From Candidatus Fraserbacteria bacterium (GTDB lineage: Bacteria; Bipolaricaulota; Bipolaricaulia; RBG-16-55-9): DNA of 64,000 nucleotides. Each line of letters starts with the position of its first letter. Positions within the stretch are counted from its first letter, which is position 1. The notes beneath the pieces are model-generated. The model was not told the DNA's origin. It searched no databases and worked only from the letters and a program-made list of their open reading frames with translations. Of the stretch, positions 13,864 to 54,324 are shown piece by piece. The stretch lies in the NCBI GenBank assembly GCA_037442925.1, contig JBBIPG010000002.1, positions 5,176-69,175 on the forward strand, written 5' to 3'. The translations under genes and the position numbers were made by a program.

Positions 13864-14553
13864 GTGGTCGTCTCGGAGCGTTGCAAGTATTGCCTTAACG
13901 AGGCGTGCATCTTCCTCAACGTGAGTCGAGATGAGATATCGTTCCACCCGGAGGACTTCACGCGATCCCTCGAATACCAGCCGGGTCAGACGCTCTTCCC
14001 CGAGGGCGCGCCCCTGTACGGGTACTCGATCATCTGTGAAGGTGCCGTGAAGCTGGTGCGGCGTCTCAAGGAGGGCAGAAGAGTCATCGTCGCAGTGCTG
14101 GGACCAGGCGATATCCTGGGCTTGTCAGCGACTCGTGAAGGGCATTTCGCTTTGGAGGCGGAGGCGTTGGATAGGACGCAGGTGGGTTTCATAGATAAAG
14201 GGGACTTCATCCGGCTTCTTGAGAGATACCCGCGCTTGGCTGCCGCGCTCGTGCAGAAACTATCGGAAGAAGTGTCTCAGCTTCAGGAGCGTCTCTTTGC
14301 GACCGCTCGGCAGAGTGCGAGGGGCAAGTTGGCCTATCTGCTCCTGCAATTGGTTGCCTCCTATGGTCGAAAACATCCGCAGGGAACCCTTATTGATCTG
14401 GAACTCACTCGGTCAGAACTGGCGGAGATGATTGGGGTGGCCCGCGAGACGGTCAGCTTGACTCTCGGTCAGTTGAAGTCCAGAGGGTTAATTGCCCTAG
14501 AAGGCCACAAGATTGTGATCCTCAATGAGATGGGTCTTGAGAACCTTTTCTGA
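13864..14553 (+). CDS. Crp/Fnr-family transcriptional regulator (cNMP-binding-like + C-terminal HTH; N-terminal Cys cluster C-x2-C-x4-C), DnrT/FNR-like
   Basis: GTG start. N-terminus ERCKYCLNEAC. HTH ARETVSLTLGQLKSRGLI with RE residues compatible with GTGA half-site recognition. Confidence 0.75.
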   Translation: MVVSERCKYCLNEACIFLNVSRDEISFHPEDFTRSLEYQPGQTLFPEGAPLYGYSIICEGAVKLVRRLKEGRRVIVAVLGPGDILGLSATREGHFALEAEALDRTQVGFIDKGDFIRLLERYPRLAAALVQKLSEEVSQLQERLFATARQSARGKLAYLLLQLVASYGRKHPQGTLIDLELTRSELAEMIGVARETVSLTLGQLKSRGLIALEGHKIVILNEMGLENLF

Positions 14554-14591: not shown

Positions 14592-14659
14592 TTGATAGCG
14601 AACAGGAAGGTTTGCCATCGCGCTCACGGGCCATTTATGTGAGAAGACCAACGCTATTT

Positions 14660-14675
14660 TGTGAGAATTCTCACA
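14660..14675. promoter_or_regulatory. Perfect 16-bp CRP-consensus palindrome TGTGAGAATTCTCACA (TGTGA-N6-TCACA), with an extra TGTGA half-site 21 bp upstream (14639-14643)
   Basis: Exact inverted repeat seen in sequence, between the Crp/Fnr regulator gene and the first por operon gene (about 80-90 bp upstream of its start). Confidence 0.7.
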
Positions 14676-14720
14676 GCACAACTTCCGCAAAAGAGCTAAT
14701 CTAAGCTGTCGGTAGCCGCT

Positions 14721-14733
14721 AGTGGTTACCACT
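14721..14733. promoter_or_regulatory. 13-bp palindrome AGTGGTtACCACT 20 bp upstream of the ATG at 14753
   Basis: Seen directly; position overlaps the expected promoter/5'UTR. Confidence 0.3.
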
Positions 14734-14752
14734 GAACAGGCAGGTGAACCAC

Positions 14753-16900
14753 ATGGCGAAGGCAGCAGAGCTACAACAGCCTATAGAATCAGAGATTCTC
14801 GCCATTCTAAGAGAAGCCAAGGCCGAAGTCCACACCGAACAGCTCGCCTCACAGCTTGGCATCACACGACACACGGCCGCAAAATATCTGGAGATCCTCC
14901 AGGCCAAGGGGCAAGTCAGCTGTCGCAAACTGGGCAACGCCAAGCTGTGGCGCGAGGCCTCTACCGAGATCGTGATTCGGCTCCTCACTTCCGCAGACCT
15001 AAATGCCATAGTAGCCATCCAAAAGCAACTACAGTCGGAGCCCGAATATGCACAGCTCAAGCTCAGTGACTTCGAGGACGAGGCGGCACTGAACAACTTC
15101 CGGCGGATGGTCGAACATCAGCTGGCGAGCAGCGATCCCGCGTGGATGTTGGGCGCGGAAGTGCAGGGACAACTCGTGGGCTTCATTCTGGGAGAGATTC
15201 GTCTCTGGGAGCGTGGCAGCGGGGAGCAGACGGGCTGGATCCGGGCGCTTGCAGTTGACCCGCGCTATCACGGACGCCACATCGGACGCCGCCTCGCGGA
15301 AGAGCTGCTGGCTCGTTTTCAAGCCCACGGAGTCCGACGTGTGAGAACGCTCATCGACTGGCAAGCCGGAAAACTCATGGCCTACTTCCAAGACCTTGGC
15401 TTCTCCATTTTAAGCATGTTGCCACTCGAAAAGGACTTGCTCGAGTCAGCTAGTGAGCCGAAGAGCATAGAAAACGGAGAGACTGTGAGTTCTCCCATAC
15501 TCGGCGAAGCGAATTTAACAGAAGGAGCAGAGATGAGCGTAAGAACCCCTGCGATCACAGAAGGAGCGTGTAGCACATTCGCAGAACTTCACCCACCATT
15601 GACAGATGGGGAAGCCGTCATGGAAGCCTATCGGTGCCTGGAATGCGGTGGGCCCTATGCTCCGGCTCCCTGCACGGTGGCGTGCCCCACGCACATTGAC
15701 ATCCCCAAGTTCATTCGCGAGATCCGCGAAGGTCGACCGTTGGATTCAGCCCGCACGATCTTTGAGGCAAATGTCTTGGGAGGCAGTTGTGCCCGCGTCT
15801 GTCCCGTGGAAGTCCTCTGCCAAGGGGCCTGCGTTCTGACGAAAGAAGGGCGACGTGCCGTGGAGATCGGTCGGCTGCAACGCTATGCGACCGATTGGGC
15901 TCTCACACGACATGAGCGGGTCATGCCAGCCAAAACGAAGACAAAGCACAACCGCCGAGTGGCCGTTCTCGGTGCAGGGCCAGCAGGGTTGGCTTGCGCA
16001 GCCGAACTGGCTCGCCTTGGTTACTCCGTGACGCTATATGAGAGTAAGACGATGCCGGGCGGACTCATCACTCATGCAATTGCCCCTTATAAGCAGCTGG
16101 TGGAGCCTCTGCCTCACGAGGTAGAGGAGATCCAGAAGCTGGGGGTCGAATTCCGGTTCGGTGTGGCCGTGGGGCGGGATCTCTCGCTTGAGGAGCTCGA
16201 GGGCGTGTACGATGCGATCTTCTTGGGGATCGGCCTCGGCGAAGATCAGTCAGCCGAGGTGCGCGGCGAGGATCTAGAAGGCGTTTACAACTCACTGGAT
16301 TTTGTGGATGAACTCAAGTTGGGCGACTGGCGCAAGCTTAAGCAGCGCTTGGGAGAGAGGATAGCAGTGCTTGGCGGTGGCAATACAGCGATTGACGTGG
16401 CTCGTGAGGCGGTGCGCCTGGGAGCCAAAGAAGTGACCGTGCTCTATCGGCGCACCGAAAAGGACATGCCGGCATACGCCCATGAATACGAGGCAGCACG
16501 CAAGGAAGGTGTGCGGTTCTTGTGGCTGACGGCTCCCAGACGCTTCGTCGGCAACGGAAGAATCCGGGCTGTCGAGTGTGTGCACTTGCGCATGGTCCAG
16601 CCGGAAGCCGGTCGCAGCTCGCCTCTGGAGCCTGTGGCGGGAACGGAGTTTCTCCTCGAAGTCGATGGTGTCATTAAAGCGATCGGCCAGCGGAAGCGTA
16701 CGGCCTTTCTGCAGCAGATTCGCGGCTTACAGCTCGAGCGCGGGCTTGTCAAGGTCGACGAGTGGGGCCAGACGGCTGGAAAATACTTTGCCGGCGGAGA
16801 TTGCGTCAATGGCGGCGACACGGCCGTGCGTGCGGTAGCCGAAGGCCGACGAGCCGCTCAAGGCATTCATCGCTTCCTAAGTGGGGAGGCCATGTCATGA
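14753..16900 (+). CDS. Tri-domain fusion: winged-helix HTH + GNAT N-acetyltransferase + glutamate-synthase-small-subunit-like (GltD/SudA/NfnB-type) NAD(P)H oxidoreductase with Fe-S and FAD/NAD folds
   Basis: HTH LGITRHTAAKYLEIL. GNAT core ALAVDPRYHGRHIGRRLAEELL. GltD N-terminal Cys motifs CLECG...PCTVACP...CARVCP...C and Rossmann VAVLGAGPAGLACAAELA. ATG 14753 with GGTGA SD (ORF track begins at GTG 14744). Stop overlaps porG start. Confidence 0.75.
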   Translation: MAKAAELQQPIESEILAILREAKAEVHTEQLASQLGITRHTAAKYLEILQAKGQVSCRKLGNAKLWREASTEIVIRLLTSADLNAIVAIQKQLQSEPEYAQLKLSDFEDEAALNNFRRMVEHQLASSDPAWMLGAEVQGQLVGFILGEIRLWERGSGEQTGWIRALAVDPRYHGRHIGRRLAEELLARFQAHGVRRVRTLIDWQAGKLMAYFQDLGFSILSMLPLEKDLLESASEPKSIENGETVSSPILGEANLTEGAEMSVRTPAITEGACSTFAELHPPLTDGEAVMEAYRCLECGGPYAPAPCTVACPTHIDIPKFIREIREGRPLDSARTIFEANVLGGSCARVCPVEVLCQGACVLTKEGRRAVEIGRLQRYATDWALTRHERVMPAKTKTKHNRRVAVLGAGPAGLACAAELARLGYSVTLYESKTMPGGLITHAIAPYKQLVEPLPHEVEEIQKLGVEFRFGVAVGRDLSLEELEGVYDAIFLGIGLGEDQSAEVRGEDLEGVYNSLDFVDELKLGDWRKLKQRLGERIAVLGGGNTAIDVAREAVRLGAKEVTVLYRRTEKDMPAYAHEYEAARKEGVRFLWLTAPRRFVGNGRIRAVECVHLRMVQPEAGRSSPLEPVAGTEFLLEVDGVIKAIGQRKRTAFLQQIRGLQLERGLVKVDEWGQTAGKYFAGGDCVNGGDTAVRAVAEGRRAAQGIHRFLSGEAMS

Positions 16901-17490
16901 TGATCGAAATCCGTTGGCACGCTCGCGGCGGTCAAGGAGCCATCACGGTTGCGGAGATCCTCGCTGCCGTCGCGCTTTGTCAGGGTCTCTACGTGCAATC
17001 GTTTCCCGAGTACGGACCAGAGCGCAGCGGCGCACCACTTCATGCGTATAATCGCATCTCCGATGAACCCATCAAACTCCATAGTGGCGTCTACGAGCCA
17101 GATATCGTCGTCGTGCTCGACCCGACGCTGCTCCATGCCGAGCCCGTGGCAGAGGGACTCAAAACCGAGGGGCTTCTGCTCGTAAATACGTCAGATGCTG
17201 CAAAAGAGATGGCAAAGCGCACGGGCTTTCGCGGCAGAGTCTTGGCAATTCCCGCCGTTCAACTGGCCGAACAGGCAAAGATCCGCTTCGCCAATGTGCC
17301 CATGTTGGGTGTGCTGTTGAGACTTCTGAACTTCCCGCTCGAAGCGGGACAAGAAGAATTCCAAACTGTCTTTAGCGAAAAGCTCAGTCCTGCTGTGCTC
17401 GAAGCGAATCTGGAGGCTTTGCGCCTCGGGTACGAAGCCGTTTCGCAGGAGAGCGTCGTAGATATGAAACGAGGTGTCATCGCATCATGA
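16897..17490 (+). CDS. porG: 2-oxoacid (pyruvate-type):ferredoxin oxidoreductase gamma subunit
   Basis: MMIEIRWHARGGQGAITVAEILA. ATGA overlap with upstream stop. The ORF-track N-terminal extension (from 16762) is an out-of-context readthrough. Confidence 0.88.
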   Translation: MMIEIRWHARGGQGAITVAEILAAVALCQGLYVQSFPEYGPERSGAPLHAYNRISDEPIKLHSGVYEPDIVVVLDPTLLHAEPVAEGLKTEGLLLVNTSDAAKEMAKRTGFRGRVLAIPAVQLAEQAKIRFANVPMLGVLLRLLNFPLEAGQEEFQTVFSEKLSPAVLEANLEALRLGYEAVSQESVVDMKRGVIAS

Positions 17491-17810
17491 TGGCGAAAGG
17501 AAAACTGAAAGCGTGGCAAGAACTGGAGGTTGGGGCTGTCGTTCTCGAAGGCGGGAGCACCCAAGCCATTCTCACCGGCGGATGGCGCACAGGCAAGAAG
17601 CCCATCGTCGACGCCCAGAAGTGCGTCAACTGCCTGCTCTGCTGGATCCACTGCCCGGAGCCTGCTATCGTCACGGAGAAGGCTCAGATGCGCGGGTACA
17701 ACTACGAACATTGCAAGGGCTGCGGCATTTGCGCCGAAGCCTGTCCTTCCGGTGCGATTTCCATGGTCCCCGAAGAAAGGGTCGTCCCCGAGAGAGGGTG
17801 GATCGAATGA
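17487..17810 (+). CDS. porD: OFOR delta subunit, 2x[4Fe-4S] ferredoxin
   Basis: CVNCLLCWIHCP and CKGCGICAEACP motifs, 107 aa. Confidence 0.88.
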   Translation: MMAKGKLKAWQELEVGAVVLEGGSTQAILTGGWRTGKKPIVDAQKCVNCLLCWIHCPEPAIVTEKAQMRGYNYEHCKGCGICAEACPSGAISMVPEERVVPERGWIE

Positions 17811-19018
17811 CTGTTGCCATGAAGCAGAAGCAATTACTCACAGGTGCTGAGGCAGTGGCTCAAGCGTGGCGCCAGATCGATCCGGATGTCGTGCCCGTCT
17901 ACCCCATCACACCCCAGACGCCGATCATCACGGCCTTCTCCGAGATGGTCGCTGAGGGACTTGCGAGCACAGAGATCATCAATGTGGAGAGTGAGCACTC
18001 GGCGATGAGCGCGGCCGTCGGTGCCGCAGCGGCTGGAGCCCGTGTGGCCACGGCCACAAGCTCGCAAGGGCTGGCTCTCATGCTCGAGATCTGTTACATT
18101 GCTGCATCCCTTCGGCTGCCCATCTTGATGAACGTGGGAGCGCGGGCACTTTCGGGTCCTATCAATATTCACTGCGACCACTCCGATGCCTATATGGCTC
18201 GCGATGCCGGATGGGTGCAGATCTTCACAGAGAATGCCCAGGAGGCTTACGACTACACGCTTATGGCACAGCGTCTCGCGGAACACGACCGCGTACGCCT
18301 GCCGGTGATGGTGATGCTCGATGGGTTCACTACCACACACTCCGCGGATGTGGCTGAGATCTTACCCGACGACCTGGCAAGACAGTTCATCGGCGAGTAT
18401 GAGCCGCCCTTCTCGTTGCTCACGCAGGTCGCGACTGTCGGCCCCTTTGACATGCCGGACTACTACTTCGAGCACAGACGAGCTCAGCAGCATGCCTTAG
18501 AACAGGTGCGTGAGGCCTTCGAGCAGATTCAAAGAATGTTCAAAGAGCAGAGTGAACGTCCGTATGAAGGGCCTTTCGAGGCGTATCAGATGGACGATGC
18601 GCGAACGGCTCTCGTGGTGATGGGTTCAGCCGCAGGCACCGCTAAGGCCGTTGTGGATATGCTGCGCCGCGAAGGTCGGCGTGTTGGTCTCATTAAACTG
18701 TGGCTCTTTCGCCCCTTCCCGCGCGCAGCCATCGCCCGGGTTTTGGGATACGTCGACAGTGTAGCTGTGTTCGATCGGGGCCTAAGCTACGGTAGCTTCG
18801 GCCCGCTGTATCTTGAGGTCACTTCAGCACTCTACAGTCGAGTCTGGGGTGTGGAGAATTCCAGGCGACCCAAACTAGCCAACATCATCTATGGACTGGG
18901 CGGACGGGATTTACGACCCGATCAGATTCGAAAAGCCTTCGATGATCTGGAGGCTGGGCGCTTGCGAGCTGATCAACTCTACTATGCCGGTTTGCGGGAA
19001 GAAGGAGACCAGCGATGA
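17807..19018 (+). CDS. porA: OFOR alpha subunit
   Basis: MTVAMKQKQLLTGAEAVAQAWRQIDPDVVPVYPITPQTPII. ATGA overlap with porD. Confidence 0.88.
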   Translation: MTVAMKQKQLLTGAEAVAQAWRQIDPDVVPVYPITPQTPIITAFSEMVAEGLASTEIINVESEHSAMSAAVGAAAAGARVATATSSQGLALMLEICYIAASLRLPILMNVGARALSGPINIHCDHSDAYMARDAGWVQIFTENAQEAYDYTLMAQRLAEHDRVRLPVMVMLDGFTTTHSADVAEILPDDLARQFIGEYEPPFSLLTQVATVGPFDMPDYYFEHRRAQQHALEQVREAFEQIQRMFKEQSERPYEGPFEAYQMDDARTALVVMGSAAGTAKAVVDMLRREGRRVGLIKLWLFRPFPRAAIARVLGYVDSVAVFDRGLSYGSFGPLYLEVTSALYSRVWGVENSRRPKLANIIYGLGGRDLRPDQIRKAFDDLEAGRLRADQLYYAGLREEGDQR

Positions 19019-20025
19019 TCCACCTCAAAGAACTGGCGCGGCGCGAGGAGAAGACGCAGAAGTTCTTCGGAGGACATGGCCTATGCGCGGGCTGCGGAGC
19101 CCCCATCGTGGTGCGCACCGTGCTCAACGCGATTGACAGGCCCATGGTCGTCATTAACGCTACAGGGTGTCTTGAGGTCGCCACGACGCGCTTCCCCTAC
19201 ACGGCATGGAGTGTCCCATGGATTCACGTGGCTTTCGAGAATGCTGCCGCCGTGGCCAGTGGAATTGAAACGGCTTATCGCGTCTTGCGGCGCAAGGGCA
19301 AGATCTCCCAGGACATGGTGTTTGTGGTCTTTGCTGGCGATGGGGGCACGTATGATATCGGGTTTCAGGCCCTCTCCGGAGCCCTGGAGCGCGGCCATCG
19401 CCTTATCTACATCTGTTACGACAACGAAGCGTACATGAATACGGGTAATCAGCGATCCGGAGCTACACCACGGGGCGCATATACTGCCACCACGCCGATT
19501 GGCAGTCGAGGCTCCGGCAAACCCCAGCGCCGCAAGGACTTGACCGAGATTGTCGTGGCCCACCACATCCCCTATGCTGCCCAGGCATCCATCTCCGACT
19601 GGCAAGATATCGTGATGAAGATCGAGCGAGCCGTGGCCGCGGACGGTCCAAGTTTCCTCAACGTCTTGTCCACGTGCACACGTGGTTGGGGGTTCCCAGC
19701 GGAGAAAGCCGTGAAGATGGCGCATCTTGCGGTCCAGAGCTGTTACTGGCCGCTCTATGAGGTCATTGACGGCGCGTGGCGCCTGAGCTACGAGCCGGAG
19801 CCGCGTACGGCCGAGGAGCGTGCCAAGTGGGGGCGCTACGGGCTCGACATCACGGAATGGCTCAAGCTCCAGGGGCGCTTCGCCCATCTCTTCCAGAAGA
19901 AGCAGGAAGGGATCTTCGTAAGGCCAGAGCACAGGGAACTGATAGCCGAGATTCAGCGTCAGGTCGAGCGCGACTGGGAGAAGCTCCTCGCCAAGTGTGG
20001 CCGCGCCATACCGGTGCTCGCCTGA
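19015..20025 (+). CDS. porB: OFOR beta subunit (TPP-binding)
   Basis: GHGLCAGCGAP and GDGGTYDIGFQALSGALERGH TPP motif. Confidence 0.88.
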   Translation: MIHLKELARREEKTQKFFGGHGLCAGCGAPIVVRTVLNAIDRPMVVINATGCLEVATTRFPYTAWSVPWIHVAFENAAAVASGIETAYRVLRRKGKISQDMVFVVFAGDGGTYDIGFQALSGALERGHRLIYICYDNEAYMNTGNQRSGATPRGAYTATTPIGSRGSGKPQRRKDLTEIVVAHHIPYAAQASISDWQDIVMKIERAVAADGPSFLNVLSTCTRGWGFPAEKAVKMAHLAVQSCYWPLYEVIDGAWRLSYEPEPRTAEERAKWGRYGLDITEWLKLQGRFAHLFQKKQEGIFVRPEHRELIAEIQRQVERDWEKLLAKCGRAIPVLA

Positions 20026-20038
20026 GGGAGAGACGCCT

Positions 20039-20293
20039 ATGGAACGCTTTCATCAAGGGGAGTTTCAGCTGATTCTAGAGCCAACCTTCTGCAAGGGCTG
20101 CAGTCTCTGCGTGAAGAGTTGCCCGACGGGCATTCTCTATTTGAACGGGCAAGGGAAGATCGCAACGCGCTCGGAGGACGTTGCGGAGAAGTGCATCTTT
20201 TGTGGATTATGCGAGGCGCGGTGTCCCGATTTCGCCATCTGGGTCGTGAAACCTGCTCGGGTTGTGCGCAAACAGAAGGCAGGGGTTATCTGA
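20039..20293 (+). CDS. 2x[4Fe-4S] ferredoxin, delta subunit of second OFOR (KorD-like)
   Basis: CKGCSLCVKSCP and CIFCGLCEARCP. ATG at 20039 inside ORF-track 19997 frame. Confidence 0.75.
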   Translation: MERFHQGEFQLILEPTFCKGCSLCVKSCPTGILYLNGQGKIATRSEDVAEKCIFCGLCEARCPDFAIWVVKPARVVRKQKAGVI

Positions 20294-20308: not shown

Positions 20309-21496
20309 ATGAAGATGGCCGATAGCGGAGCCAACAATAAGAAGAAGCCACGGCTCATCCAAGGCAACGAAGCGTGCGCCTACGGTGCGCTCTACGCGGG
20401 CTGTCGCTTCTATGCGGGTTATCCGATCACGCCCAGCTCCGAGATCATGGAGATCATGTCGAGAGAGCTGCCTAAGATCGGCGGAGTCTTCATCCAGATG
20501 GAAGATGAGATCGCATCGATATCGGCCGTGATTGGAGCTGCTTGGGCGGGAGCTAAGGCGATGGCGGCCACCAGCGGCCCGGGTTTTTCACTCATGCAAG
20601 AAGGCATAGGCTACGCGGCGATCACCGAGACCCCGTGCGTGATTGTGGACTCGCAACGCTGGGGGCCATCGACAGGCCAACCCACAAAAACGGCCCAAGG
20701 CGATGTGATGCAGGCCATCTGGGGCACCCACGGCGATCACCCCGTGATTGTGCTCACGGCCTCGCATGTGCGAGAGGTCTTCGAAATGACCGTTACGGCG
20801 TTCAACTACGCTGAGCAATACCGGGTTCCCGTGATCTTACTGTTGGATGAAGTCCTGTCCCACATGCGGGAGAACGTGTTCATCCCCGAGCCAGGGGAGA
20901 TCGAGATCATCGAGCGGAAACGACCGCCTTCCCTGAGCGACTTCCGGCCGTTCAAAGACCTCAGTTTCTTGCCGTTTGGAGATGGTGCCCGCTTCAACGT
21001 GACGGGAATGGCCCACGATGAGTGGGGTTTCCCTGCACAAGGACCAGAGGCGGAACGCCAGCTACGCCGCATCATCGACAAGATTCACGTCGATGTCGAA
21101 TCCCTCGCGCTCTTTGAAGAACTGCATCTTGATGATGCTGACAGCGTGATCGCAAGCTATGGCATCACAAGTCGCGCGGCCGAGAGCGCCGTCGAGCAGT
21201 TGCGTGCTGAGGGCCTACGAATCGGGTTCTTGAATTTGAAGACGCTTTGGCCATTCCCAGATTTCCTCTTCGAGCGGCTTCCAGCACACATCGAATATAT
21301 TCTAGTCCCGGAGTTGAACCTGGGCCAGCTGGTGCGTGAGGTGCGGCGGGCCGTGCAGGGACAGCGCGGGCAATCTCTTAGAGTCGAACACCTGGGGCGG
21401 GTGGACGGCAGCTTGATCACACCGCAACAGATCATCGAAACCGTTCACGCCTTCCCCGGCTCTAGGGTTTCAACGGGAGGAGCCCCACGATGCTGA
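20309..21496 (+). CDS. Second OFOR alpha subunit (KorA/VorA-like)
   Basis: GNEACAYGALYAGCRFYAGYPITPSSEIME, 395 aa. Confidence 0.85.
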   Translation: MKMADSGANNKKKPRLIQGNEACAYGALYAGCRFYAGYPITPSSEIMEIMSRELPKIGGVFIQMEDEIASISAVIGAAWAGAKAMAATSGPGFSLMQEGIGYAAITETPCVIVDSQRWGPSTGQPTKTAQGDVMQAIWGTHGDHPVIVLTASHVREVFEMTVTAFNYAEQYRVPVILLLDEVLSHMRENVFIPEPGEIEIIERKRPPSLSDFRPFKDLSFLPFGDGARFNVTGMAHDEWGFPAQGPEAERQLRRIIDKIHVDVESLALFEELHLDDADSVIASYGITSRAAESAVEQLRAEGLRIGFLNLKTLWPFPDFLFERLPAHIEYILVPELNLGQLVREVRRAVQGQRGQSLRVEHLGRVDGSLITPQQIIETVHAFPGSRVSTGGAPRC

Positions 21497-22329
21497 AAGA
21501 ACCATATAGAGAGTACCTACGCTCCGATGAGTTGCCAAGCGTCTGGTGTCCGGGCTGCGGCAACGGAGTCATCGTCAAAGCTCTCGTCAACGCTATAGAC
21601 AGTCTGAAGCTGAAGAAAGACGATGTGGTGGTCGTGGGAGGCATCGGGTGTTCGGGACGTACACCGTTCATTTTGGATTTCAATACCATGCATACGACTC
21701 ATGGTCGTGCGCTGGCTTTCGCTACAGGGATCAAGCTCACACGACCGGAACTTAAGGTGATCGTCGCGATGGGCGATGGCGATGCCTCGGCCATCGGCGG
21801 CAATCACTTCATCCACGCCTGTCGCCGCAACATTGATCTCACAGCCCTCATCTTTAACAACGCCATCTATGGCCAGACGGGAGGGCAACTGGCCCCCACC
21901 ACACCCCAAGGCAAACGAAGCGCAACCTCACAATGGGGGAGCATCGAGCCGAACTTTGATCTATGTCAGCTGGCGCTGGGTGCCGGAGCCGGTTTTGTGG
22001 CACGCACGACGGTCTTCGACTTTCAAGAACTGAAGGGATTTCTCGAAAGGGCTCTCTGGCACAAGGGGTTTTCGGTGGTGGAGATCATGACTTCGTGTCC
22101 AACCTACTTTGGCCGGATGAACGACATCCGCGAACCCTACGAGATGCTGCACTATCTCAAAGACTTGACGATTCCCCAAGATGCGGCCGCCATGGAAGAG
22201 GAACGAGAACGGATGAGAAGGCTTCCGACGGGGGTTTTCAAGGACGAAGAACGAACGGAGTACACGCAGCTCTATCGAGAACTCTGTGAGACGGCCAAGG
22301 CGGCCACAGACGGTTCCCGTGGAGAATGA
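21490..22329 (+). CDS. Second OFOR beta subunit (TPP-binding, KorB-like)
   Basis: WCPGCGNG and GDGDASAIGGNHFIHACRRN. Confidence 0.85.
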   Translation: MLKEPYREYLRSDELPSVWCPGCGNGVIVKALVNAIDSLKLKKDDVVVVGGIGCSGRTPFILDFNTMHTTHGRALAFATGIKLTRPELKVIVAMGDGDASAIGGNHFIHACRRNIDLTALIFNNAIYGQTGGQLAPTTPQGKRSATSQWGSIEPNFDLCQLALGAGAGFVARTTVFDFQELKGFLERALWHKGFSVVEIMTSCPTYFGRMNDIREPYEMLHYLKDLTIPQDAAAMEEERERMRRLPTGVFKDEERTEYTQLYRELCETAKAATDGSRGE

Positions 22330-22919
22330 ACAGCAAGAGAAGCCGTAGAGGCAGAAAGAGCAAAGATCCTGTGCAGATTCGTCTGAGCGGCTCAGGCGGC
22401 CAAGGCTTGATCACAGCCGGTGTCATCTTGGCGGAAGCCGCGTTACTCGATGGCAAGAACGTCGTGCAGACGCAAAGCTATGGCCCTGAGGCGCGGCTGG
22501 GCGCGAGCAAATCCGAAGTGATCATCTCCAAAGGGAAGATTGCCTATCCCCAAGTCATGAATCCAGACATCCTTCTTTGCTTATCGCAAGACTCCTTCGA
22601 CAAGTACATCTCGCAGACCAACGCGGAGGCCATGATCATTGTGGATTCTGACTTTGTGGAGCATGGGTCATCCACGAACAAGCGGATCTATGCACTTCCG
22701 ATCACCAAGACAGCTACCGCCGTCGGCAGCAAGGTGGTGGCGAACGTTGTCGCCTTGGGAGTGATGAATGCTCTGGCAGGCTTGGTTGCTTCCACGAGTT
22801 TGCACGAAGCGGTAGTCAAGCGCGTGCCAGAGCGATTCCGTGCACTCAATGAGCGAGCGGTAGAAGCCGGTGAGAAGCTCATCGAAGAATCTCCGGATTC
22901 CGAAAGGAGGGCCATATGA
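22326..22919 (+). CDS. Second OFOR gamma subunit (KorC/G-like)
   Basis: IRLSGSGGQGLITAGVILAEAA. Confidence 0.82.
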   Translation: MNSKRSRRGRKSKDPVQIRLSGSGGQGLITAGVILAEAALLDGKNVVQTQSYGPEARLGASKSEVIISKGKIAYPQVMNPDILLCLSQDSFDKYISQTNAEAMIIVDSDFVEHGSSTNKRIYALPITKTATAVGSKVVANVVALGVMNALAGLVASTSLHEAVVKRVPERFRALNERAVEAGEKLIEESPDSERRAI

Positions 22920-23224
22920 AACGCCGTTGGGATGATGAAGAGGAAGCATTGGGACAGACGGCAGGTCTACTCGCGGAATGTGGCGAGAAGGGAAAGAACT
23001 GTTGGGCACTCTACGTCGTGATGGATGAAGTGATCGAGACGGTAGGACCTTCGTGGCTCGCTCATTTCATCGCCACTACCAAGAACAAAGTGGCTGCCGT
23101 TGAACTGCAGAGCTACTTGCAAGCTCACTGGCCCGCTTACGCAGAACTGGTTGAACAGCTCCTCGCTGGCACCAACTGGACGAGAGAGACCGACGGCCTC
23201 GAAAAAGACTTCGGCGACGACTGA
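22916..23224 (+). CDS. Small acidic hypothetical protein (102 aa), translationally coupled to OFOR gamma (ATGA overlap)
   Basis: ORF with 4-nt start/stop overlap to the upstream gene. No recognisable motif. Confidence 0.4.
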   Translation: MKRRWDDEEEALGQTAGLLAECGEKGKNCWALYVVMDEVIETVGPSWLAHFIATTKNKVAAVELQSYLQAHWPAYAELVEQLLAGTNWTRETDGLEKDFGDD

Positions 23225-42076: not shown

Positions 42077-42592
42077 ATGGAGCGACTCTTCTGTGACCCA
42101 CGAAAGTGCGTGGGCTGCCATTCGTGCGAACTGGCCTGCGCGCTGGAGCATACCCCCTCCAAAGATCTATTCCGGGCCGTCCTCACCGGGGAGTCGGGTC
42201 CGCCGCGTCGGCGCGTCCAGACGGTAGGGGACCGGCCCTATCGGGTAGCGATTGGTGGCGTTGTTCTCTCACTGGGCTGCCATCACTGCGATCCTGCCCC
42301 TTGTGTCGATGCGTGCATCGCTGGGGCGATGCATAAAGAAAACGGCGAGACGATCTGCGATCTGGACAAGTGCGTAGGTTGCTGGATGTGCGTGATGAGC
42401 TGCCCGTATGGGGCCATCACGCCTCACGTCAAAGCACTGAAGTGTGATCTCTGCCCCGATCGTCGAGACAAGACCGGGCGATCTCGCTACGCTTGCATCG
42501 AGGCCTGCCCTACGGAGGCCCTCTTTGCCGGGACGTTTGAAGCATTCGAGAAGACCCTATCTCAGCCAATTGTTCAGGGGGTGGCCCGATGA
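42077..42592 (+). CDS. cooF: CooF-like poly-ferredoxin (4 [4Fe-4S] motifs)
   Basis: CVGCHSCELAC, CHHCDPAPC, CVGCWMCVMSCP, CDLCPD...CIEACP. Confidence 0.85.
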   Translation: MERLFCDPRKCVGCHSCELACALEHTPSKDLFRAVLTGESGPPRRRVQTVGDRPYRVAIGGVVLSLGCHHCDPAPCVDACIAGAMHKENGETICDLDKCVGCWMCVMSCPYGAITPHVKALKCDLCPDRRDKTGRSRYACIEACPTEALFAGTFEAFEKTLSQPIVQGVAR

Positions 42593-43917
42593 GATACGTC
42601 ATCATCGGTGCTTCCGCGGCAGGAGTCAGTGCGGCAGAGACGCTGCGAAAGCATGAGCCCGCTGCTGAGATCGTCATGATCTCCGATGAACAACTCATAT
42701 ATTCCAAGCCGCTTCTCTCGTACTACTTGGCCGGGAAGCTAAAGGAAGAGCAACTGCTCTGGCGCGCGCCGGATTTCTTCGAGCGCAACCAGATTGAAGC
42801 GTTGCTGGGAGTCCGCGCCAGCGAATTAGCACCCCAGCAGAGCAAAGTTGTGCTCAAAGATGGCCGCGAGGTTTCGTACGATAGGCTTCTCTTGGCAAAC
42901 GGGGCTTCTCCGAGATTTGCGGCGCTCGAAGGCCGCGAGAAGGCCGGGCTTTTTGGTCTGCGCAAGCTCGAAGATGCGAGGAGCATTTTGGCGCTACTGG
43001 CACGATCCCGGCGGGCGGTCGTGCTCGGCGGGGGCTTAGTCGGTCTTAAGGTCGCGGCGGCTCTCAAAGAGCGGGGTGTTGAAGTGACTGTCTTGGTGGA
43101 TTCGCCTCATGTCCTCTCGCAAATGCTTGACGAGACCTCTGCGCGTATCTTCGAAACAGTGTTCGAGCAGAACGGTGTGCGCATCTTGTGCAAAGCTCGG
43201 CCAGTAGCGCTTACCGGAGGCGAGCGGGTTACCGGTGTCAAGCTAGCATCTGGCGAAGAATACCCGGCAGATCTGGTCGTTGCCGGTAAGGGCGTGGATG
43301 CTAACCTCGATCTGGCCAAAAGTGCTGGCATCGCCTGCGATTATGCGATCTTGGTGGATGAGTATTGCCGCACGAATGTCGAGAATATCTACGCAGCGGG
43401 TGACGTGGCGCAAACGCGCGATGTGCTTCGGGGTGAACCGTGGGTGAACGCGCTCTGGCCCTGTGCCGTCGAGCAAGGGCGCATCGCTGCTCTCAACATG
43501 TTAGGTCAGAAGACGGCGTATCGGGGTTCCATGCGCATGAACAGCGTCCAGTTCTTTGAGTTGCCTGTGATCTCAGCGGGATTGGCTGTCTTGACGCCGG
43601 GCCCGCTGGGAGGGCGATCCGGCGAGCATGACAAGACGATCGAGACGCGACCCGCTCCAGCAGTCTACCGCAAGATCTTCTTAAAAGACGACACCATCGT
43701 GGGGTTCGTCCTCATCGGCGGTGAGCGGGACCTGGAAGCCGCAGGACTGCTGCGCATCTTGATGGAGCGTCGCATGGGGGTCGCAGGAATGGAGGAGGAG
43801 TTACTGGAGATAGGACCGGACCTGGGGCGCTTATTGCCACGGATCGTGCAAGACCGTGAGCGATTCGTCGAGCGAGAATTTCAAGAACTCATCCAAACGG
43901 TGAAGGTGGGGGTGTGA
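42589..43917 (+). CDS. FAD/NAD(P)-dependent pyridine-nucleotide oxidoreductase (CODH-associated, CooF partner)
   Basis: YVIIGASAAGVSAAE FAD Rossmann, second VVLGGGLVGLKVAAAL NAD Rossmann. cooF-FNOR synteny known from CODH gene clusters. Confidence 0.78.
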   Translation: MRYVIIGASAAGVSAAETLRKHEPAAEIVMISDEQLIYSKPLLSYYLAGKLKEEQLLWRAPDFFERNQIEALLGVRASELAPQQSKVVLKDGREVSYDRLLLANGASPRFAALEGREKAGLFGLRKLEDARSILALLARSRRAVVLGGGLVGLKVAAALKERGVEVTVLVDSPHVLSQMLDETSARIFETVFEQNGVRILCKARPVALTGGERVTGVKLASGEEYPADLVVAGKGVDANLDLAKSAGIACDYAILVDEYCRTNVENIYAAGDVAQTRDVLRGEPWVNALWPCAVEQGRIAALNMLGQKTAYRGSMRMNSVQFFELPVISAGLAVLTPGPLGGRSGEHDKTIETRPAPAVYRKIFLKDDTIVGFVLIGGERDLEAAGLLRILMERRMGVAGMEEELLEIGPDLGRLLPRIVQDRERFVEREFQELIQTVKVGV

Positions 43918-43921
43918 CGAT

Positions 43922-47521: not shown

Positions 47522-47529
47522 AGGAGCTT

Positions 47530-48870
47530 GTGATGGCCAAACTCACGGGAATAGAGATCTATAAACACCTGCCCAAGACTAACTGTGGTGACTGTAATTT
47601 CCCTACGTGTATGGCCTTCGCCATGCAAGTGGCCGCCAAGAAAGTGGGTCTCGAGCAGTGCCCACATGTCTCAGCCGAGGCGAAAGCGGCCCTTTCCGAA
47701 GCCCAAGCCCCACCGATGCGTGTGGTCACGATCGGGGCGGGAGATCGTGCGCTCAAAGTCGGCGGCGAGACGGTGTTGTTCCGACACGACGAGAAATTCC
47801 ATCGCCCGACGGTCATTGCCATTCGCGTGCGGGATGATCTGCCGGAAGCGGAGCTGGCTCAGCGTATCGAGAAGATCAATCAGATCCAGTTCGTGCGCGT
47901 CGGACAGAAGATCGCCGTCAATGCCATCGCCGTCGAGCAAACGAACAGTGGGAAGTTTGTGCCCTCCGTGAAGCTTGTCAGCGAAAGATCCCCACTCGTG
48001 CTCATCTTGATCAGCTCTGATCCTCGGGCTCTCACGGCTGCTCTTGAGATCTGTGCGGATCGACGCCCATTGATCCACGCGGCGACAAAAGAGAACTGTA
48101 AAGAACTGGCAGCGCTGGCAAAGCAGTTCAACTGCCCGTTGGCCGTCCGTGCCACATCTCTTGAAGAGCTGGCTGAACTTACTCACGAGATGAAAGCCTC
48201 AGGCGTCGAGGATCTCGTCCTGGACCCGAACGTACAGGGAATGGCTGAGGGACTGACCAAACTGACACAACTCCGTCGTCTGGCCCTAGAGAAGACGTTT
48301 AGACCCTTAGGATTTCCCACCATGACGATCGTTCCTGGCAGTGACCCGTTCATGGATACGGCTCAGGCGGCGGCGTACATCTGCAAGTACGCCAGCATCA
48401 TCGTGATGGATGGCTGCGAACGCTGGCAGCTGTTGCCCATTTTGACAGCGCGCCAGAACATCTACACCGACCCGCAAGTGCCCAACGCTGTCGAGGCCAA
48501 GCTCTACAAAGTGGGCGAGCCAGGATCTCAATCACCCGTACTGGTTACCACAAACTTCGCGCTCACCTACTTCACCGTCGAAGGCGAAGTGGAGAACAGC
48601 CGCGTCCCGGCCTACATCGCCGTGGTGGATACCGGGGGATTGGGTGTGCTCAATGCCTACGCAGACGACAAGCTCACAGCGGAGGGAATCGTCAAGACCG
48701 TCAAGGCCTCTGGAATCATGGATCAAGTTTCCCATAAGAAACTCGTCATCCCCGGATTAGTCGCCGTGCTCAAGGGCGAGATCGAGGACGAAGGAGGCTG
48801 GGAAGTGTTAGTTGGTCCGGAGGAAGCAGCGGGCTTGCCCGCCTACTTGCGAAACGATTGGAAAGCGTAA
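47530..48870 (+). CDS. acsC: Corrinoid iron-sulfur protein large subunit (AcsC/CdhE)
   Basis: N-terminal [4Fe-4S] motif KTNCGDCNFPTCMAFAM. 446 aa. Confidence 0.9.
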   Translation: MMAKLTGIEIYKHLPKTNCGDCNFPTCMAFAMQVAAKKVGLEQCPHVSAEAKAALSEAQAPPMRVVTIGAGDRALKVGGETVLFRHDEKFHRPTVIAIRVRDDLPEAELAQRIEKINQIQFVRVGQKIAVNAIAVEQTNSGKFVPSVKLVSERSPLVLILISSDPRALTAALEICADRRPLIHAATKENCKELAALAKQFNCPLAVRATSLEELAELTHEMKASGVEDLVLDPNVQGMAEGLTKLTQLRRLALEKTFRPLGFPTMTIVPGSDPFMDTAQAAAYICKYASIIVMDGCERWQLLPILTARQNIYTDPQVPNAVEAKLYKVGEPGSQSPVLVTTNFALTYFTVEGEVENSRVPAYIAVVDTGGLGVLNAYADDKLTAEGIVKTVKASGIMDQVSHKKLVIPGLVAVLKGEIEDEGGWEVLVGPEEAAGLPAYLRNDWKA

Positions 48871-48886
48871 AGGCAGGGGACTCGAG

Positions 48887-52560: not shown

Positions 52561-52561
52561 C

Positions 52562-53365: not shown

Positions 53366-53366
53366 A

Positions 53367-54266: not shown

Positions 54267-54324
54267 ACGTGCTAGGTACAGCAGTCGAAAGACTCGCGTT
54301 GACCATCTTGGGGAAGGGGGAGTC

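What the first reader, a model, noticed from the sequence alone, without database searches (positions are those of the whole stretch)
14753..16900. Unusual wHTH-GNAT-GltD tri-domain fusion as first gene of a pyruvate:ferredoxin oxidoreductase operon
One continuous 716-718 codon frame joins a MarR/ArsR-like winged helix, a GNAT acetyltransferase core and a complete GltD/SudA/NfnB-type Fe-S flavoprotein. Its stop overlaps the porG start. This suggests an NAD(P)H:ferredoxin-linking partner for POR, with regulatory or acyl-transfer (acetyl-CoA sensing?) domains attached. I am not aware of this architecture being described. It could couple POR electron flow to NAD(P) and to protein acetylation.
Basis: partly seen in the sequence, partly recalled or inferred. 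Interest (0 to 1): 0.55.

Follow-up and report, generated by a model that had tools for sequence, protein, structure and literature searches.

The report
Regulator fused to oxidoreductase flavoprotein subunit
The 715-residue gene is real: in one small bacterial lineage a DNA-binding regulator gene (winged helix plus acetyltransferase-like sensor) has fused to its neighbour, an NADPH-type iron-sulfur flavoprotein that probably links 2-oxoacid oxidoreductases to NAD(P). Following it up exposed an apparently undescribed regulator family with a conserved DNA target.

Summary
One ORF (ATG 14753 to TGA 16900, 715 aa) carries wHTH, GNAT, Fer4_20 and FAD/NAD(P)H domains, and its stop overlaps the porG start (ATGA). 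It is not a frameshift artefact. Diverged copies (75-90% identity) from separate assemblies keep the frame, with in-frame linker indels and dN/dS of 0.05-0.21 in every domain.

The architecture is very rare: one 50%-identity cluster among 1.84 billion representatives. It arose by fusing two adjacent genes, which are still separate and overlapping in a syntenic relative (L011).

The N-terminal half belongs to a widespread, apparently undescribed wHTH-GNAT family. Its members head OFOR operons and benzoyl-CoA-reductase-like operons. They are preceded by a conserved palindrome, TGGTAACC-N6-GGTTACCA (window 14711-14730), enriched about 780-fold next to these genes. This points to an autoregulator.

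The C-terminal half is NfnB-like. It always lies directly upstream of OFOR genes and is fused elsewhere to OFOR delta, gamma or alpha-beta subunits. It is probably the NAD(P)-linking OFOR subunit.

A conserved internal SD-ATG (15521-15535) at the ancestral start suggests the flavoprotein is also made alone. Coupling to protein acetylation is unsupported.

The parts
13864..14553 (+). Crp/Fnr-family regulator gene with N-terminal Cys motif. It is syntenic with the operon in the window, L002, L011/L019, L017 and L003.
   Evidence: Pfam cNMP_binding + HTH_Crp_2. NCBIfam FnrL/FixK/Fnr-like hits, below cut-offs. Synteny.
14638..14653 (.). Conserved upstream box TGTGAGAAGACCAACG. It looks like a CRP half-site and its function is unknown.
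   Evidence: Conserved block in the promoter alignment A3.
14660..14675 (.). Perfect CRP-type palindrome TGTGAGAATTCTCACA, the probable site of the adjacent Crp/Fnr-family protein.
   Evidence: The box is found only in Fraserbacteria/Acetothermia-type loci and not in Acidobacteriota loci that carry the other palindrome.
14697..14702 (+). -10-like hexamer TAATCT. T-A-n-n-n-T is invariant in 7 aligned promoters. It puts the CRP box centre near -41.5 and the palindrome near +2..+22. This geometry is inferred.
   Evidence: alignment. Caveat: the consensus promoter scan did not flag a sigma-70 site here.
14711..14730 (.). Operator-like palindrome GGTAGCCGCTAGTGGTTACC, a member of the family consensus TGGTAACC-N6-GGTTACCA. 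It ends 22 nt before the start codon and is the proposed binding site of the wHTH.
   Evidence: It is the only convincing match in the 64-kb window (one other match has 2 mismatches). There is one site per locus, upstream of wHTH-headed genes, and none elsewhere in about 300 kb. In 65 further loci, 44 sites lie in 18.3 kb next to the wHTH gene start against 2 in 650 kb elsewhere.
14753..16900 (+). Tri-domain fusion gene (715 aa plus stop).
14753..14962 (+). Winged helix-turn-helix (aa 1-70). The recognition helix RHTAAKYLEIL and the wing GNAKLW are nearly invariant across the family.
   Evidence: Pfam HTH_11/FaeA. Alignments A1 and A2. The AF2 model shows three helices plus a beta-hairpin wing, with pLDDT 80-90.
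14963..15436 (+). GNAT domain (aa 71-228). Motif A reads H-G-R-H-I-G, so the fourth Gly of Q/R-x-x-G-x-G/A is replaced by His here and in P0002 and P0003.
   Evidence: Pfam Acetyltransf_1/7/10. Alignment A2. Foldseek hits to GNATs such as 3F0A, Ard1 and RimI. dN/dS about 0.2.
15437..15568 (+). Variable, predicted-disordered linker (aa 229-272) derived from the former gene boundary.
   Evidence: In-frame indels among the fused homologues. pLDDT 25-30.
15521..15535 (+). Conserved internal Shine-Dalgarno plus ATG (GAAGGAGCAGAGATG; Met261). It aligns with the start Met of unfused homologues and is a candidate internal start giving a 455-aa flavoprotein.
   Evidence: The same nucleotide motif occurs in L002, L001 and L017. 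It is the only AAGGAG-N4-8-ATG inside the ORF, and at least 4 of the 8 such motifs on this strand mark real gene starts.
15569..15922 (+). Fer4_20 domain (aa 273-390) for two [4Fe-4S] clusters. Eight invariant Cys (295, 298, 307, 311, 346, 350, 356, 360) and an invariant Glu353.
   Evidence: Pfam. Invariant columns of A1. Alignment to T. maritima NfnB.
15923..16897 (+). FAD and NAD(P)H-binding domains (aa 391-715): GAGPAG, GGGNTA, and an invariant Y565-R566-R567.
   Evidence: Pfam Pyr_redox_2. Best solved relative is NfnB 4YLF_B, E 6e-104. The Arg-Arg pair is the 2'-phosphate site in NfnI-type proteins, per PMC8965080.
16897..17490 (+). OFOR-1 gamma subunit (porG-like). Its start overlaps the fusion gene's stop.
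   Evidence: Pfam POR. NCBIfam PorC_KorC.
17487..17810 (+). OFOR-1 delta subunit (2x[4Fe-4S]).
   Evidence: Pfam Fer4 families.
17807..19018 (+). OFOR-1 alpha subunit.
   Evidence: Pfam POR_N + PFOR_II. PorA_Arch 442 bits, below the 550 cut-off.
19015..20025 (+). OFOR-1 beta subunit (TPP).
   Evidence: Pfam TPP_enzyme_C. PorB 362 bits, below the 405 cut-off.
19997..20293 (+). Stand-alone delta-type ferredoxin of OFOR-2. It is homologous to the C-terminal domain fused to the flavoprotein in relatives.
   Evidence: Pfam. 46% identity, E 2e-26, to the C-terminus of P0013.
20309..22919 (+). OFOR-2 alpha (20309-21496), beta (21490-22329) and gamma (22326-22919).
   Evidence: Pfam. NCBIfam PRK08659 528 bits, above the 411 cut-off.
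22916..23224 (+). Conserved 102-aa ORF of unknown function that closes the operon.
   Evidence: No Pfam or NCBIfam hit. A 101-103-aa ORF with no Pfam hit lies within or at the end of the OFOR cluster in L001, L002, L003, L009 and L011. Sequence identity (64-75%) was measured only for L018 and L019.

Best explanation
The gene is a genuine, old, lineage-restricted fusion of two neighbouring genes. The lineage appears to be Candidatus Fraserbacteria / Bipolaricaulota-like.

Part 1 (aa 1-228) is a wHTH-GNAT transcription regulator. Its winged helix most likely binds, as a dimer, the 20-bp palindrome at 14711-14730. That site lies just downstream of a Crp/Fnr-activated promoter and across the predicted transcription start. 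Binding would therefore repress its own operon. The GNAT domain most likely serves as the signal module, either by binding an acyl-CoA/CoA-type ligand or by making a small acetylated effector.

Part 2 (aa 273-715) is an NfnB/GltD-type flavoprotein with two [4Fe-4S] clusters, FAD and an NADP(H) site. It most likely docks on the delta-ferredoxin subunits of the two OFORs encoded downstream. It would carry electrons between their Fe-S chain and NAD(P): 2-oxoacid + CoA + NAD(P)+ -> acyl-CoA + CO2 + NAD(P)H.

A conserved internal SD-ATG at the former start codon probably lets the cell also make the 455-aa flavoprotein alone.

Shown: the fusion, its origin from adjacent genes, purifying selection, the co-occurrence of wHTH and palindrome, and the conserved linkage and fusions between the flavoprotein and OFOR genes.

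Inferred: DNA binding and repression, the ligand, NAD(P)-linked OFOR activity, and internal initiation.
For: Fusion is real and old: (diverged fused copies from separate assemblies, in-frame indels, dN/dS 0.05-0.21, dS above 1).

Origin from neighbours: L011 has the same synteny (RluA-like pseudouridine synthase, aminotransferase, Crp) but a separate 234-aa wHTH-GNAT gene. It overlaps the flavoprotein gene by 22 nt in another frame.

Regulator role: about 40 stand-alone wHTH-GNAT clusters and 75 related genome loci. The gene is first in operons for OFOR, for HGD-D/BcrAD (class-I-BCR-like) enzymes and for AFOR/FeS/HdrD-like (BamBCD-like) enzymes. Palindrome sites number 44 in 18.3 kb next to the wHTH start against 2 in 650 kb elsewhere. 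The palindrome is absent upstream of flavoprotein genes without a wHTH (L006, L008, L092). It is present upstream of wHTH-flavoprotein fusions that lack the GNAT (L009/L080, L074, L076). It is separable from the CRP box. Conserved promoter blocks are shown.

Flavoprotein role: the closest solved relative is NfnB, with invariant Cys, Glu, FAD, NADPH and Arg-Arg motifs. The gene is directly upstream of OFOR genes in all eight distinct OFOR-type contexts examined. Fusions exist to the delta-ferredoxin, to PorG (769 aa) and to an alpha-beta OFOR subunit (1004 aa) in L013. No NfnA or GltB partner gene lies in any locus examined.

Biochemical precedent: the NfnI-like Fdh3B makes a W-formate dehydrogenase reduce NADP+ (PMC8965080).

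Internal start.
Against: There is no experimental data; every organism involved is an uncultured MAG.

The consensus promoter scan found no sigma-70 site at the proposed position. The promoter and operator geometry therefore rests only on conservation.

The GNAT motif A has His in place of the otherwise invariant fourth Gly in this protein, P0002 and P0003. CoA-ligand binding may be weakened here.

Regulators are usually needed in far lower copy number than enzyme subunits, which fits awkwardly with a fused gene. The internal start would resolve this, but it is unproven.

The NfnB flavin is tuned for bifurcation, and simple two-electron NAD(P)+ reduction by an OFOR-bound module has not been shown for this clade.

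The closest unfused relative, P0006 (77% identity), runs the same operon with no wHTH-GNAT at all. The regulatory part is therefore dispensable for the enzyme.
Confidence: 0.6

Rival explanations
1. Trigger-enzyme reading. The fusion is adaptive because the flavoprotein itself controls the wHTH. The redox or NADP(H) state of the FAD/Fe-S module, or its recruitment into the OFOR complex, would sequester the wHTH from the operator. Operon transcription would then follow the NAD(P)H/ferredoxin state, as in PutA.
For: wHTH-flavoprotein fusions that have lost the GNAT entirely still carry the nearly invariant recognition helix (P0005, P0019, P0013, P0024 and others). Where loci were checked, they also keep the operator upstream (L009/L080, L074, L076). 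In those proteins the flavoprotein is the only possible sensor domain in cis. All domains of the tri-domain gene are under purifying selection.
Against: No direct evidence exists. The linker is long, variable and predicted to be disordered, which does not suggest tight interdomain coupling. The conserved internal start suggests the two halves are also needed separately. A split arrangement works in close relatives.
Confidence: 0.2
2. The flavoprotein is a free-standing NADPH:ferredoxin oxidoreductase and not an OFOR subunit. It would be co-expressed with the OFORs to recycle the ferredoxin they reduce, for example to supply NADPH to the Wood-Ljungdahl pathway encoded 20 kb downstream.
For: Gene neighbourhood alone cannot separate a soluble redox partner from a subunit. 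The window does encode ACS/CODH, RACo and CooS. The module has the full NfnB cofactor set.
Against: Covalent fusions to the OFOR delta-ferredoxin, to PorG and to an alpha-beta subunit in relatives argue for physical association. Translational coupling to porG (ATGA overlap) points the same way.
Confidence: 0.2
3. The GNAT is a catalytically active acetyltransferase. It would either make a small-molecule effector (BadL-like) or acetylate a protein such as an OFOR subunit.
For: The GNAT fold and most core residues are conserved family-wide: the RxWE motif, GWI, the Tyr211 region and the last Gly of motif A. BadL shows that a GNAT can make the effector that releases the repressor of a benzoyl-CoA reductase operon (PMC6191541). 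The stand-alone family heads BCR-like operons.
Against: In this protein the fourth Gly of the CoA-pyrophosphate loop is His. No acceptor substrate can be inferred. No evidence for protein acetylation was found. The GNAT has been lost from many wHTH-flavoprotein relatives while the operator was kept.
Confidence: 0.25
4. The fusion is an assembly or sequencing artefact, or a recent non-functional read-through of two genes.
For: A syntenic relative has two separate, overlapping genes, so a single indel would fuse them.
Against: Diverged fused sequences come from separate assemblies, with in-frame indels in the linker. dS against L001 is above 1, with dN/dS at or below 0.21 in all domains.
Confidence: 0.03

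Closest known systems
[quoted passage not shown]
   Same: Best solved match (E 6e-104 and 2e-95). It shares the Fer4_20 domain with 8 Cys plus Glu for two [4Fe-4S] clusters, the FAD and NADPH motifs, and the Arg-Arg pair for the 2'-phosphate.
   Different: No NfnA partner gene lies in this or any related locus examined. Here the gene is translationally coupled to OFOR genes and carries an N-terminal regulator.
Fdh3B of Thermococcus onnurineus NADP-dependent formate dehydrogenase (PMC8965080)
   Same: An NfnI-L-like NAD(P)-binding flavoprotein, wired through Fe-S proteins, that confers NADP+ reduction on an otherwise ferredoxin/viologen-type oxidoreductase. This is the proposed logic for the OFOR here.
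   Different: The catalytic partner differs (W-formate dehydrogenase against TPP-dependent OFOR). Fdh3B has no regulator domains.
NAD(P)-linked 2-oxoacid oxidoreductases: phenylglyoxylate:NAD+ oxidoreductase PadEFGHI (Hirsch et al. 1998, as cited in PMC5109826). Also, from my own knowledge, Azoarcus 2-oxoglutarate:NADP+ oxidoreductase KorABC and Euglena pyruvate:NADP+ oxidoreductase.
   Same: An OFOR core plus an extra flavoprotein module that passes electrons to NAD(P)+.
   Different: The flavoprotein modules differ in type, as far as I recall. PadE, PadG and PadI models match the window subunits only weakly and far below their cut-offs. PadH could not be compared.
BadL/BadM control of the benzoyl-CoA reductase operon in Rhodopseudomonas palustris (PMC6191541)
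   Same: A GNAT plus a DNA-binding repressor jointly control an operon for a low-potential, CoA-thioester-dependent Fe-S enzyme. The stand-alone wHTH-GNAT family heads BCR-like operons.
   Different: BadL and BadM are separate proteins, and BadM is Rrf2-type. Here a wHTH and a GNAT sit in one chain. Homology of this GNAT to BadL was not tested.
Trigger enzymes / regulator-enzyme fusions (PutA, BirA, NadR), from general knowledge
   Same: A DNA-binding domain and an enzyme or cofactor-binding module in one polypeptide, which autoregulates its own operon.
   Different: The domain types differ. Here the fusion is recent, the halves are separate genes in close relatives, and an internal start may uncouple them.
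PanM/PanZ, a GNAT-fold acetyl-CoA sensor (PMC3398536)
   Same: Precedent for a GNAT used as a CoA-thioester sensor and not as a transferase (title and abstract).
   Different: PanM regulates PanD maturation through protein-protein contact. It has no DNA-binding domain.

Membership tests
NfnAB (electron-bifurcating transhydrogenase), NfnB subunit | Fer4_20 domain with ligands for two [4Fe-4S] clusters, plus FAD and NADPH sites | tested here: met
   Pfam Fer4_20 and Pyr_redox_2. Eight invariant Cys plus Glu353, GAGPAG, GGGNTA and YRR. 4YLF_B at E 6e-104.
NfnAB (electron-bifurcating transhydrogenase), NfnB subunit | An adjacent or fused NfnA partner (FNR-like, [2Fe-2S] + FAD + NAD) | tested here: not met
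   No such gene flanks the flavoprotein in the window or in L001-L011 and L092. The neighbours are always OFOR genes. The rest of the genome was not searched.
Glutamate synthase small subunit (GltD) | Association with a GltB large subunit; score above the family cut-off | tested here: not met
   TIGR01316/TIGR01318/TIGR01317 score 350/325/186 bits, below their cut-offs of 472/483/448. No GltB-like gene lies in any locus.
GNAT acetyltransferase superfamily | GNAT fold | tested here: met
   Pfam Acetyltransf_1/7/10 above cut-offs. AF2 model pLDDT 80.6, with Foldseek probability 1.0 to many GNATs.
GNAT acetyltransferase superfamily | Motif A Q/R-x-x-G-x-G/A (CoA pyrophosphate loop) | tested here: inconclusive
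   The family consensus is [Q/H/W]-x-x-G-I-G. This protein, P0002 and P0003 read H-G-R-H-I-G, with the fourth Gly replaced by His. P0004 keeps Q-G-R-G-V-G.
GNAT acetyltransferase superfamily | Acetyl-CoA binding or transferase activity | not testable with these tools
   This needs biochemistry.
Winged-helix (HTH_11 / ArsR-like) DNA-binding regulators | wHTH fold with a recognition helix and wing | tested here: met
   HTH_11 at 26.7 bits against a cut-off of 25, a marginal pass. The AF2 model shows three helices plus a beta-hairpin. There are weak ArsR/SmtB hits.
Winged-helix (HTH_11 / ArsR-like) DNA-binding regulators | A cognate palindromic operator at its own promoter (autoregulation) | tested here: met
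   The palindrome lies at 14711-14730. Enrichment next to wHTH genes is about 780-fold across phyla. Actual binding was not tested.
NAD(P)-dependent OFOR complexes (PadEFGHI type) | OFOR alpha, beta, gamma and delta subunits plus a dedicated flavoprotein subunit in one operon | tested here: met
   The operon layout is shown. Covalent flavoprotein-OFOR fusions occur in relatives.
NAD(P)-dependent OFOR complexes (PadEFGHI type) | Orthology to PadE/G/I/H | tested here: not met
   PadE, PadG and PadI models score 108, 256 and 194 bits against cut-offs of 300, 700 and 700. PadH did not appear among the best 25 NCBIfam hits of the flavoprotein.
Pyruvate:ferredoxin oxidoreductase (PorABDG) | Equivalog-level match of the alpha and beta subunits | tested here: not met
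   PorA_Arch scores 442 bits, below 550. PorB scores 362 bits, below 405. It belongs to the Por/Vor family, but the substrate is not assignable.
Trigger enzymes (regulator-enzyme fusions) | A DNA-binding domain and an enzyme module in one chain that regulates its own pathway | tested here: inconclusive
   The architecture and operator position fit. Functional coupling cannot be tested here, and the internal start argues for partial independence.

The most novel reading that the evidence does not exclude
Two linked, apparently undescribed systems.

(a) A cross-phylum family of wHTH-GNAT autoregulators with a defined 20-bp operator. They would control operons for low-potential CoA-thioester Fe-S enzymes: OFORs and both classes of benzoyl-CoA reductase.

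(b) A class of OFORs made NAD(P)-dependent by an NfnB-type subunit.

In this lineage the two have merged into a single trigger-enzyme-like protein. Its DNA binding would respond to the redox, NADP(H) or assembly state of the flavoprotein, as well as to an acyl-CoA signal. Transcription of the 2-oxoacid oxidoreductases would then be tied directly to the cell's acyl-CoA and pyridine-nucleotide status.
Probability: 0.2. Interest if true: 0.75.

Novelty: new variant of a known kind. Interest (0 to 1): 0.55.

Why it matters
If the NfnB-type protein is an OFOR subunit, many uncultured anaerobes (Bipolaricaulota, Fraserbacteria and relatives) oxidise 2-oxoacids with NAD(P)+ as well as, or in place of, ferredoxin. 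That would change how their energy and redox budgets are reconstructed from genomes. It is especially relevant next to a Wood-Ljungdahl cluster that consumes NADPH.

The wHTH-GNAT family with its palindrome gives a concrete, testable regulator and operator pair for benzoyl-CoA reductase and OFOR operons in Acidobacteriota/Aminicenantes and Bipolaricaulota. No regulator of these operons in those phyla turned up in the literature searches.

The series from split genes, to the tri-domain fusion, to wHTH-flavoprotein without the GNAT is a clean natural example of how regulator-enzyme fusions arise. The retained internal ribosome-binding site is part of that picture.

Tried and rejected
- Frameshift or assembly artefact: rejected.
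- Membership in Nfn or glutamate synthase: rejected. There are no partner genes and the scores fall below the family cut-offs.
- Literature searches: five searches looked for a GltD/NfnB-like OFOR partner, Bipolaricaulota OFORs or HTH-GNAT regulators and found no description. One query failed on syntax. PMC13285125, PMC6405883 and PMC9012536 were checked and do not describe this system. A later search found the BadL/BadM precedent.
- PadEFGHI: a search and PMC5109826 confirmed that the enzyme exists. They gave no PadH sequence or domain data, so PadH homology stays untested.
- L017 (Fraserbacteria RBG_16_55_9, the closest species representative): both its junction and its promoter are masked by runs of N. 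Its linker continues like the fused forms, but fusion there cannot be proven.
- Full-length AF2 model: the GNAT part is poor because only 4 sequences cover it. The model was used only to show linker disorder.
- Structural comparison: Foldseek and a PDB profile search with the wHTH-GNAT model found only single-domain GNATs and no two-domain relative.
- Curated families: NCBIfam has no model for the wHTH-GNAT family.
- Promoter scan: the consensus scan did not support the inferred promoter.
- Palindrome as the Crp/Fnr site: rejected. The palindrome occurs in 24 loci that have no CRP box and no adjacent crp gene.
- NfnA elsewhere in the window: not searched exhaustively.


Full report
**1. Observation.**
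The window holds one ORF at 14744..16900 (+), 718 aa from GTG. The ATG at 14753 gives 715 aa, identical to database protein P0001. Homologues begin MAKA..., so 14753 is the likely start.

Pfam places these domains (718-aa numbering):
- HTH_11 at 16-56
- GNAT (Acetyltransf_1/7/10) within 78-221
- Fer4_20 at 277-389
- Pyr_redox_2 at 405-701

The stop TGA (16898-16900) overlaps the ATG of a POR gamma-subunit gene (ATGA). PorD, porA and porB follow, then a second OFOR set: ferredoxin, alpha, beta, gamma and a 102-aa ORF.

**2. Is the continuous frame real?**
Yes. Three other 90%-identity clusters share the full architecture: P0002 (89%), P0003 (88%) and P0004 (75%). They come from different Logan and ENA assemblies.
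- Their linkers differ by in-frame indels, and the other two frames are full of stops.
- Codon analysis of the window against L002 and L001 gives dN/dS of 0.05-0.21 for every domain. dS is above 1 against L001.
- The fusion is therefore old and all parts are maintained.

An exhaustive phmmer search of 1.84 billion 50%-identity representatives found only this protein's own cluster matching residues 1-715. All other top hits begin near residue 265-305. The architecture is real and very rare.

**3. Origin: a fusion of neighbours.**
Searching with the N-terminal 238 aa alone found about 40 stand-alone wHTH-GNAT proteins of 215-260 aa, at 41-58% identity.

In L011 (a 'Candidatus Fraserbacteria' MAG) the synteny matches the window: pseudouridine synthase on the minus strand, then aminotransferase, then Crp. 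There, a 234-aa wHTH-GNAT gene ends 22 nt after the start of a separate flavoprotein gene, in a different frame. A small indel would fuse them.

It explains the fusion; it does not refute that the fusion is real.

Inside the otherwise variable linker, all fused genes keep GAAGGAG-N5-ATG (window 15521-15535).
- Met261 aligns with the start Met of unfused homologues of 455 aa.
- It is the only AAGGAG-N4-8-ATG inside the ORF. At least 4 of the 8 such motifs on this strand mark real gene starts.
- I infer that the flavoprotein is also translated on its own. This is not shown.

**4. The N-terminal half is a regulator with a conserved operator.**
Upstream of every wHTH-headed gene first examined lies the palindrome GGTnACC-N6-GGTTACC. 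In the window it is at 14711-14730, 22 nt before the ATG. It is a perfect 20-mer in L013.

A genome scan with the wHTH-GNAT alignment returned 75 loci. They come from Fraserbacteria, Acetothermia/Bipolaricaulia, Aminicenantes/Acidobacteriota and Glassbacteria, plus a few archaeal MAGs.
- 44 of 65 scorable loci have a site with at most 1 mismatch within -250..+30 of the wHTH start.
- That is 44 sites in 18.3 kb, against 2 sites in 650 kb elsewhere.
- The consensus is TGGTAACC-(A/G)ATAT(T/C)-GGTTACCA.

The recognition helix (RHTAAKYLEIL) and the wing (GNAKLW) are nearly invariant. This fits an invariant half-site.

The palindrome is absent upstream of flavoprotein genes that lack a wHTH (L006, L008, L092). 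It is present upstream of wHTH-flavoprotein fusions that lack the GNAT (L009/L080, L074, L076).

A second element is a perfect CRP-type box, TGTGAGAATTCTCACA (14660-14675). It is found only in the Fraserbacteria/Acetothermia-type loci. A Crp/Fnr-family gene lies directly upstream in several of these, including the window. The palindrome also occurs in 24 Acidobacteriota-type loci that have no such box. The two motifs are therefore separable.

An alignment of seven promoters shows an invariant T-A-n-n-n-T between the two elements (window 14697-14702). This places the CRP box centre near -41.5 and the palindrome near +2..+22. That is an activator-plus-repressor layout.

This geometry is inference. 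The consensus promoter scan did not flag the site.

**5. What the regulator family controls.**
Stand-alone wHTH-GNAT genes are the first gene of three kinds of operon:
- flavoprotein-OFOR operons (L011/L019)
- amidohydrolase / enoyl-CoA hydratase / HGD-D x2 / BcrAD x2 operons, or HGD-D x2 / BcrAD x2 directly (class-I benzoyl-CoA-reductase-like)
- AFOR-family + Fe-S + HdrD-like operons (BamBCD-like, class-II benzoyl-CoA reductase type)

The common theme is low-potential Fe-S enzymes that make or use CoA thioesters. That makes an acyl-CoA-type signal at the GNAT plausible.

Two precedents exist:
- BadL is a GNAT whose product releases the BadM repressor from the badDEFGAB operon (PMC6191541).
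- PanM is a GNAT-fold acetyl-CoA sensor (PMC3398536).

The AF2 model of the wHTH-GNAT half is confident (pLDDT 80.6). Its PDB neighbours are single-domain GNATs only. No NCBIfam model covers the family.

In this protein, and in P0002 and P0003, the otherwise invariant fourth Gly of motif A is His. CoA-ligand binding may therefore be altered in the fused clade.

**6. The C-terminal half.**
Its best solved relatives are T. maritima NfnB (E 6e-104) and P. furiosus NfnI-L. StnC/NfnABC-type proteins, GltD and DPD follow.

Conserved features:
- eight invariant Cys and an invariant Glu, for two [4Fe-4S] clusters
- the FAD and NAD(P)H glycine motifs
- an invariant Y-R-R; the Arg pair binds the NADP(H) 2'-phosphate in this protein type (PMC8965080)

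No NfnA or GltB gene accompanies it anywhere. In all eight distinct OFOR-type contexts examined, the gene sits directly upstream of OFOR genes.

In relatives it is covalently fused to three different OFOR parts:
- a delta-type ferredoxin, 46% identical to the window's stand-alone ferredoxin at 19997-20293
- PorG, as a 769-aa protein (L013)
- an alpha-beta OFOR subunit, as a 1004-aa protein (L013)

These fusions are strong evidence for physical and functional association.

T. onnurineus Fdh3B is a biochemical precedent. There an NfnI-like flavoprotein confers NADP+ reduction on a W-formate dehydrogenase through Fe-S proteins. PadEFGHI is a known NAD+-reducing OFOR with an added flavoprotein (cited in PMC5109826).

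I therefore favour a non-bifurcating role as the NAD(P)-linking subunit of the OFORs. Substrate specificity of OFOR-1 is open, because PorA and PorB score below the equivalog cut-offs.

**7. Rivals.**
- *PutA-like trigger enzyme.* This reading is attractive because wHTH-flavoprotein proteins without a GNAT keep the recognition helix and the operator. The disordered linker, the internal start and the working split arrangement argue against tight coupling. I give it about 0.2.
- *Free NADPH:ferredoxin oxidoreductase.* This is weakened by the covalent fusions to OFOR subunits.
- *Catalytic GNAT (BadL-like).* This remains possible. Protein acetylation has no support.
- *Artefact.* This is excluded.

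**8. Novelty and verdict.**
Each domain type is known. So are the concepts of NAD(P)-linked OFORs and of regulator-enzyme fusions.

Three things appear to be undescribed, within the literature and family libraries I could search:
- the wHTH-GNAT regulator family and its operator
- the systematic use of an NfnB-type subunit by OFORs in these phyla
- their fusion into one gene in this lineage

I rate it a new variant of a known kind, with interest 0.55. My confidence in the composite explanation is about 0.6. By element:
- the fusion and its origin: about 0.95
- the wHTH-operator pairing: about 0.8
- the OFOR-subunit role: about 0.65
- the GNAT sensor role and the internal start: about 0.5 each

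Noticed in passing
window 43922-47521 (+): A 1199-aa acetyl-CoA synthase/CODH beta-type protein (CODH_A_N, CdhC, ACS_CODH_B_C) is interrupted by a LAGLIDADG_3 domain at aa 855-932. This is probably an intein with a homing endonuclease inside ACS.
   Followed up: no
window 42589-56232: A Wood-Ljungdahl carbonyl-branch cluster (ACS/CODH, RACo at 48812-50797, CooS-type CODH at 54250-56232) lies about 20 kb downstream of the OFOR operon. The organism is probably acetogen-like, which bears on the direction of OFOR electron flow.
   Followed up: partly
window 22916-23224 (+); also L001 8497-8802, L002 13793-14101, L003 12728-13039, L009 9953-10258, L011 13944-14249: A conserved ORF of about 101-103 aa with no Pfam or NCBIfam hit accompanies the OFOR genes in all these loci. 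Measured identity is 64-75%, in L018 and L019 only. It may be an unrecognised OFOR accessory subunit.
   Followed up: partly
window 13864-14553 (+): The Crp/Fnr-family regulator has an N-terminal Cys motif (C7-x2-C10-x4-C15) like FNR-type Fe-S sensors. Its presumed site is CRP-like (TGTGA-N6-TCACA), not FNR-like.
   Followed up: partly
L013 1-1326 and 3406-6420 (GCA_900174565.1): Direct fusions of the NfnB/GltD-type module to OFOR subunits: a 769-aa PorG-flavoprotein and a 1004-aa POR_N + TPP_enzyme_C + Fer4 + flavoprotein.
   Followed up: partly
L003 4293-7958: In the P0013 locus, an HdrA/MvhD-like protein (819 aa, FlpD) and an HdrBC-like CCG protein lie between the two OFOR sets, just before the wHTH-flavoprotein-ferredoxin gene. 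This hints at a larger, possibly bifurcating, complex in some lineages.
   Followed up: no
L039 6909-10605; L050 6745-11322: In Acidobacteriota/Aminicenantes MAGs the wHTH-GNAT gene precedes an AFOR-family protein (653-667 aa), a small Fe-S protein and an HdrD-like CCG protein. This is the BamBCD-like signature of class II benzoyl-CoA reductase. L050 also has FdhD.
   Followed up: partly
window 14638-14653: A second conserved box, TGTGAGAAnnCCAAC, lies 22 nt upstream of the CRP palindrome and is conserved in six of the seven aligned promoters. It resembles a CRP half-site, and its role is unknown.
   Followed up: no
L008 13548-16433: In the locus with the plain flavoprotein P0010, the OFOR operon is followed by pntA/pntB, a membrane transhydrogenase. 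This again links the operon to NAD(P)H balance.
   Followed up: no
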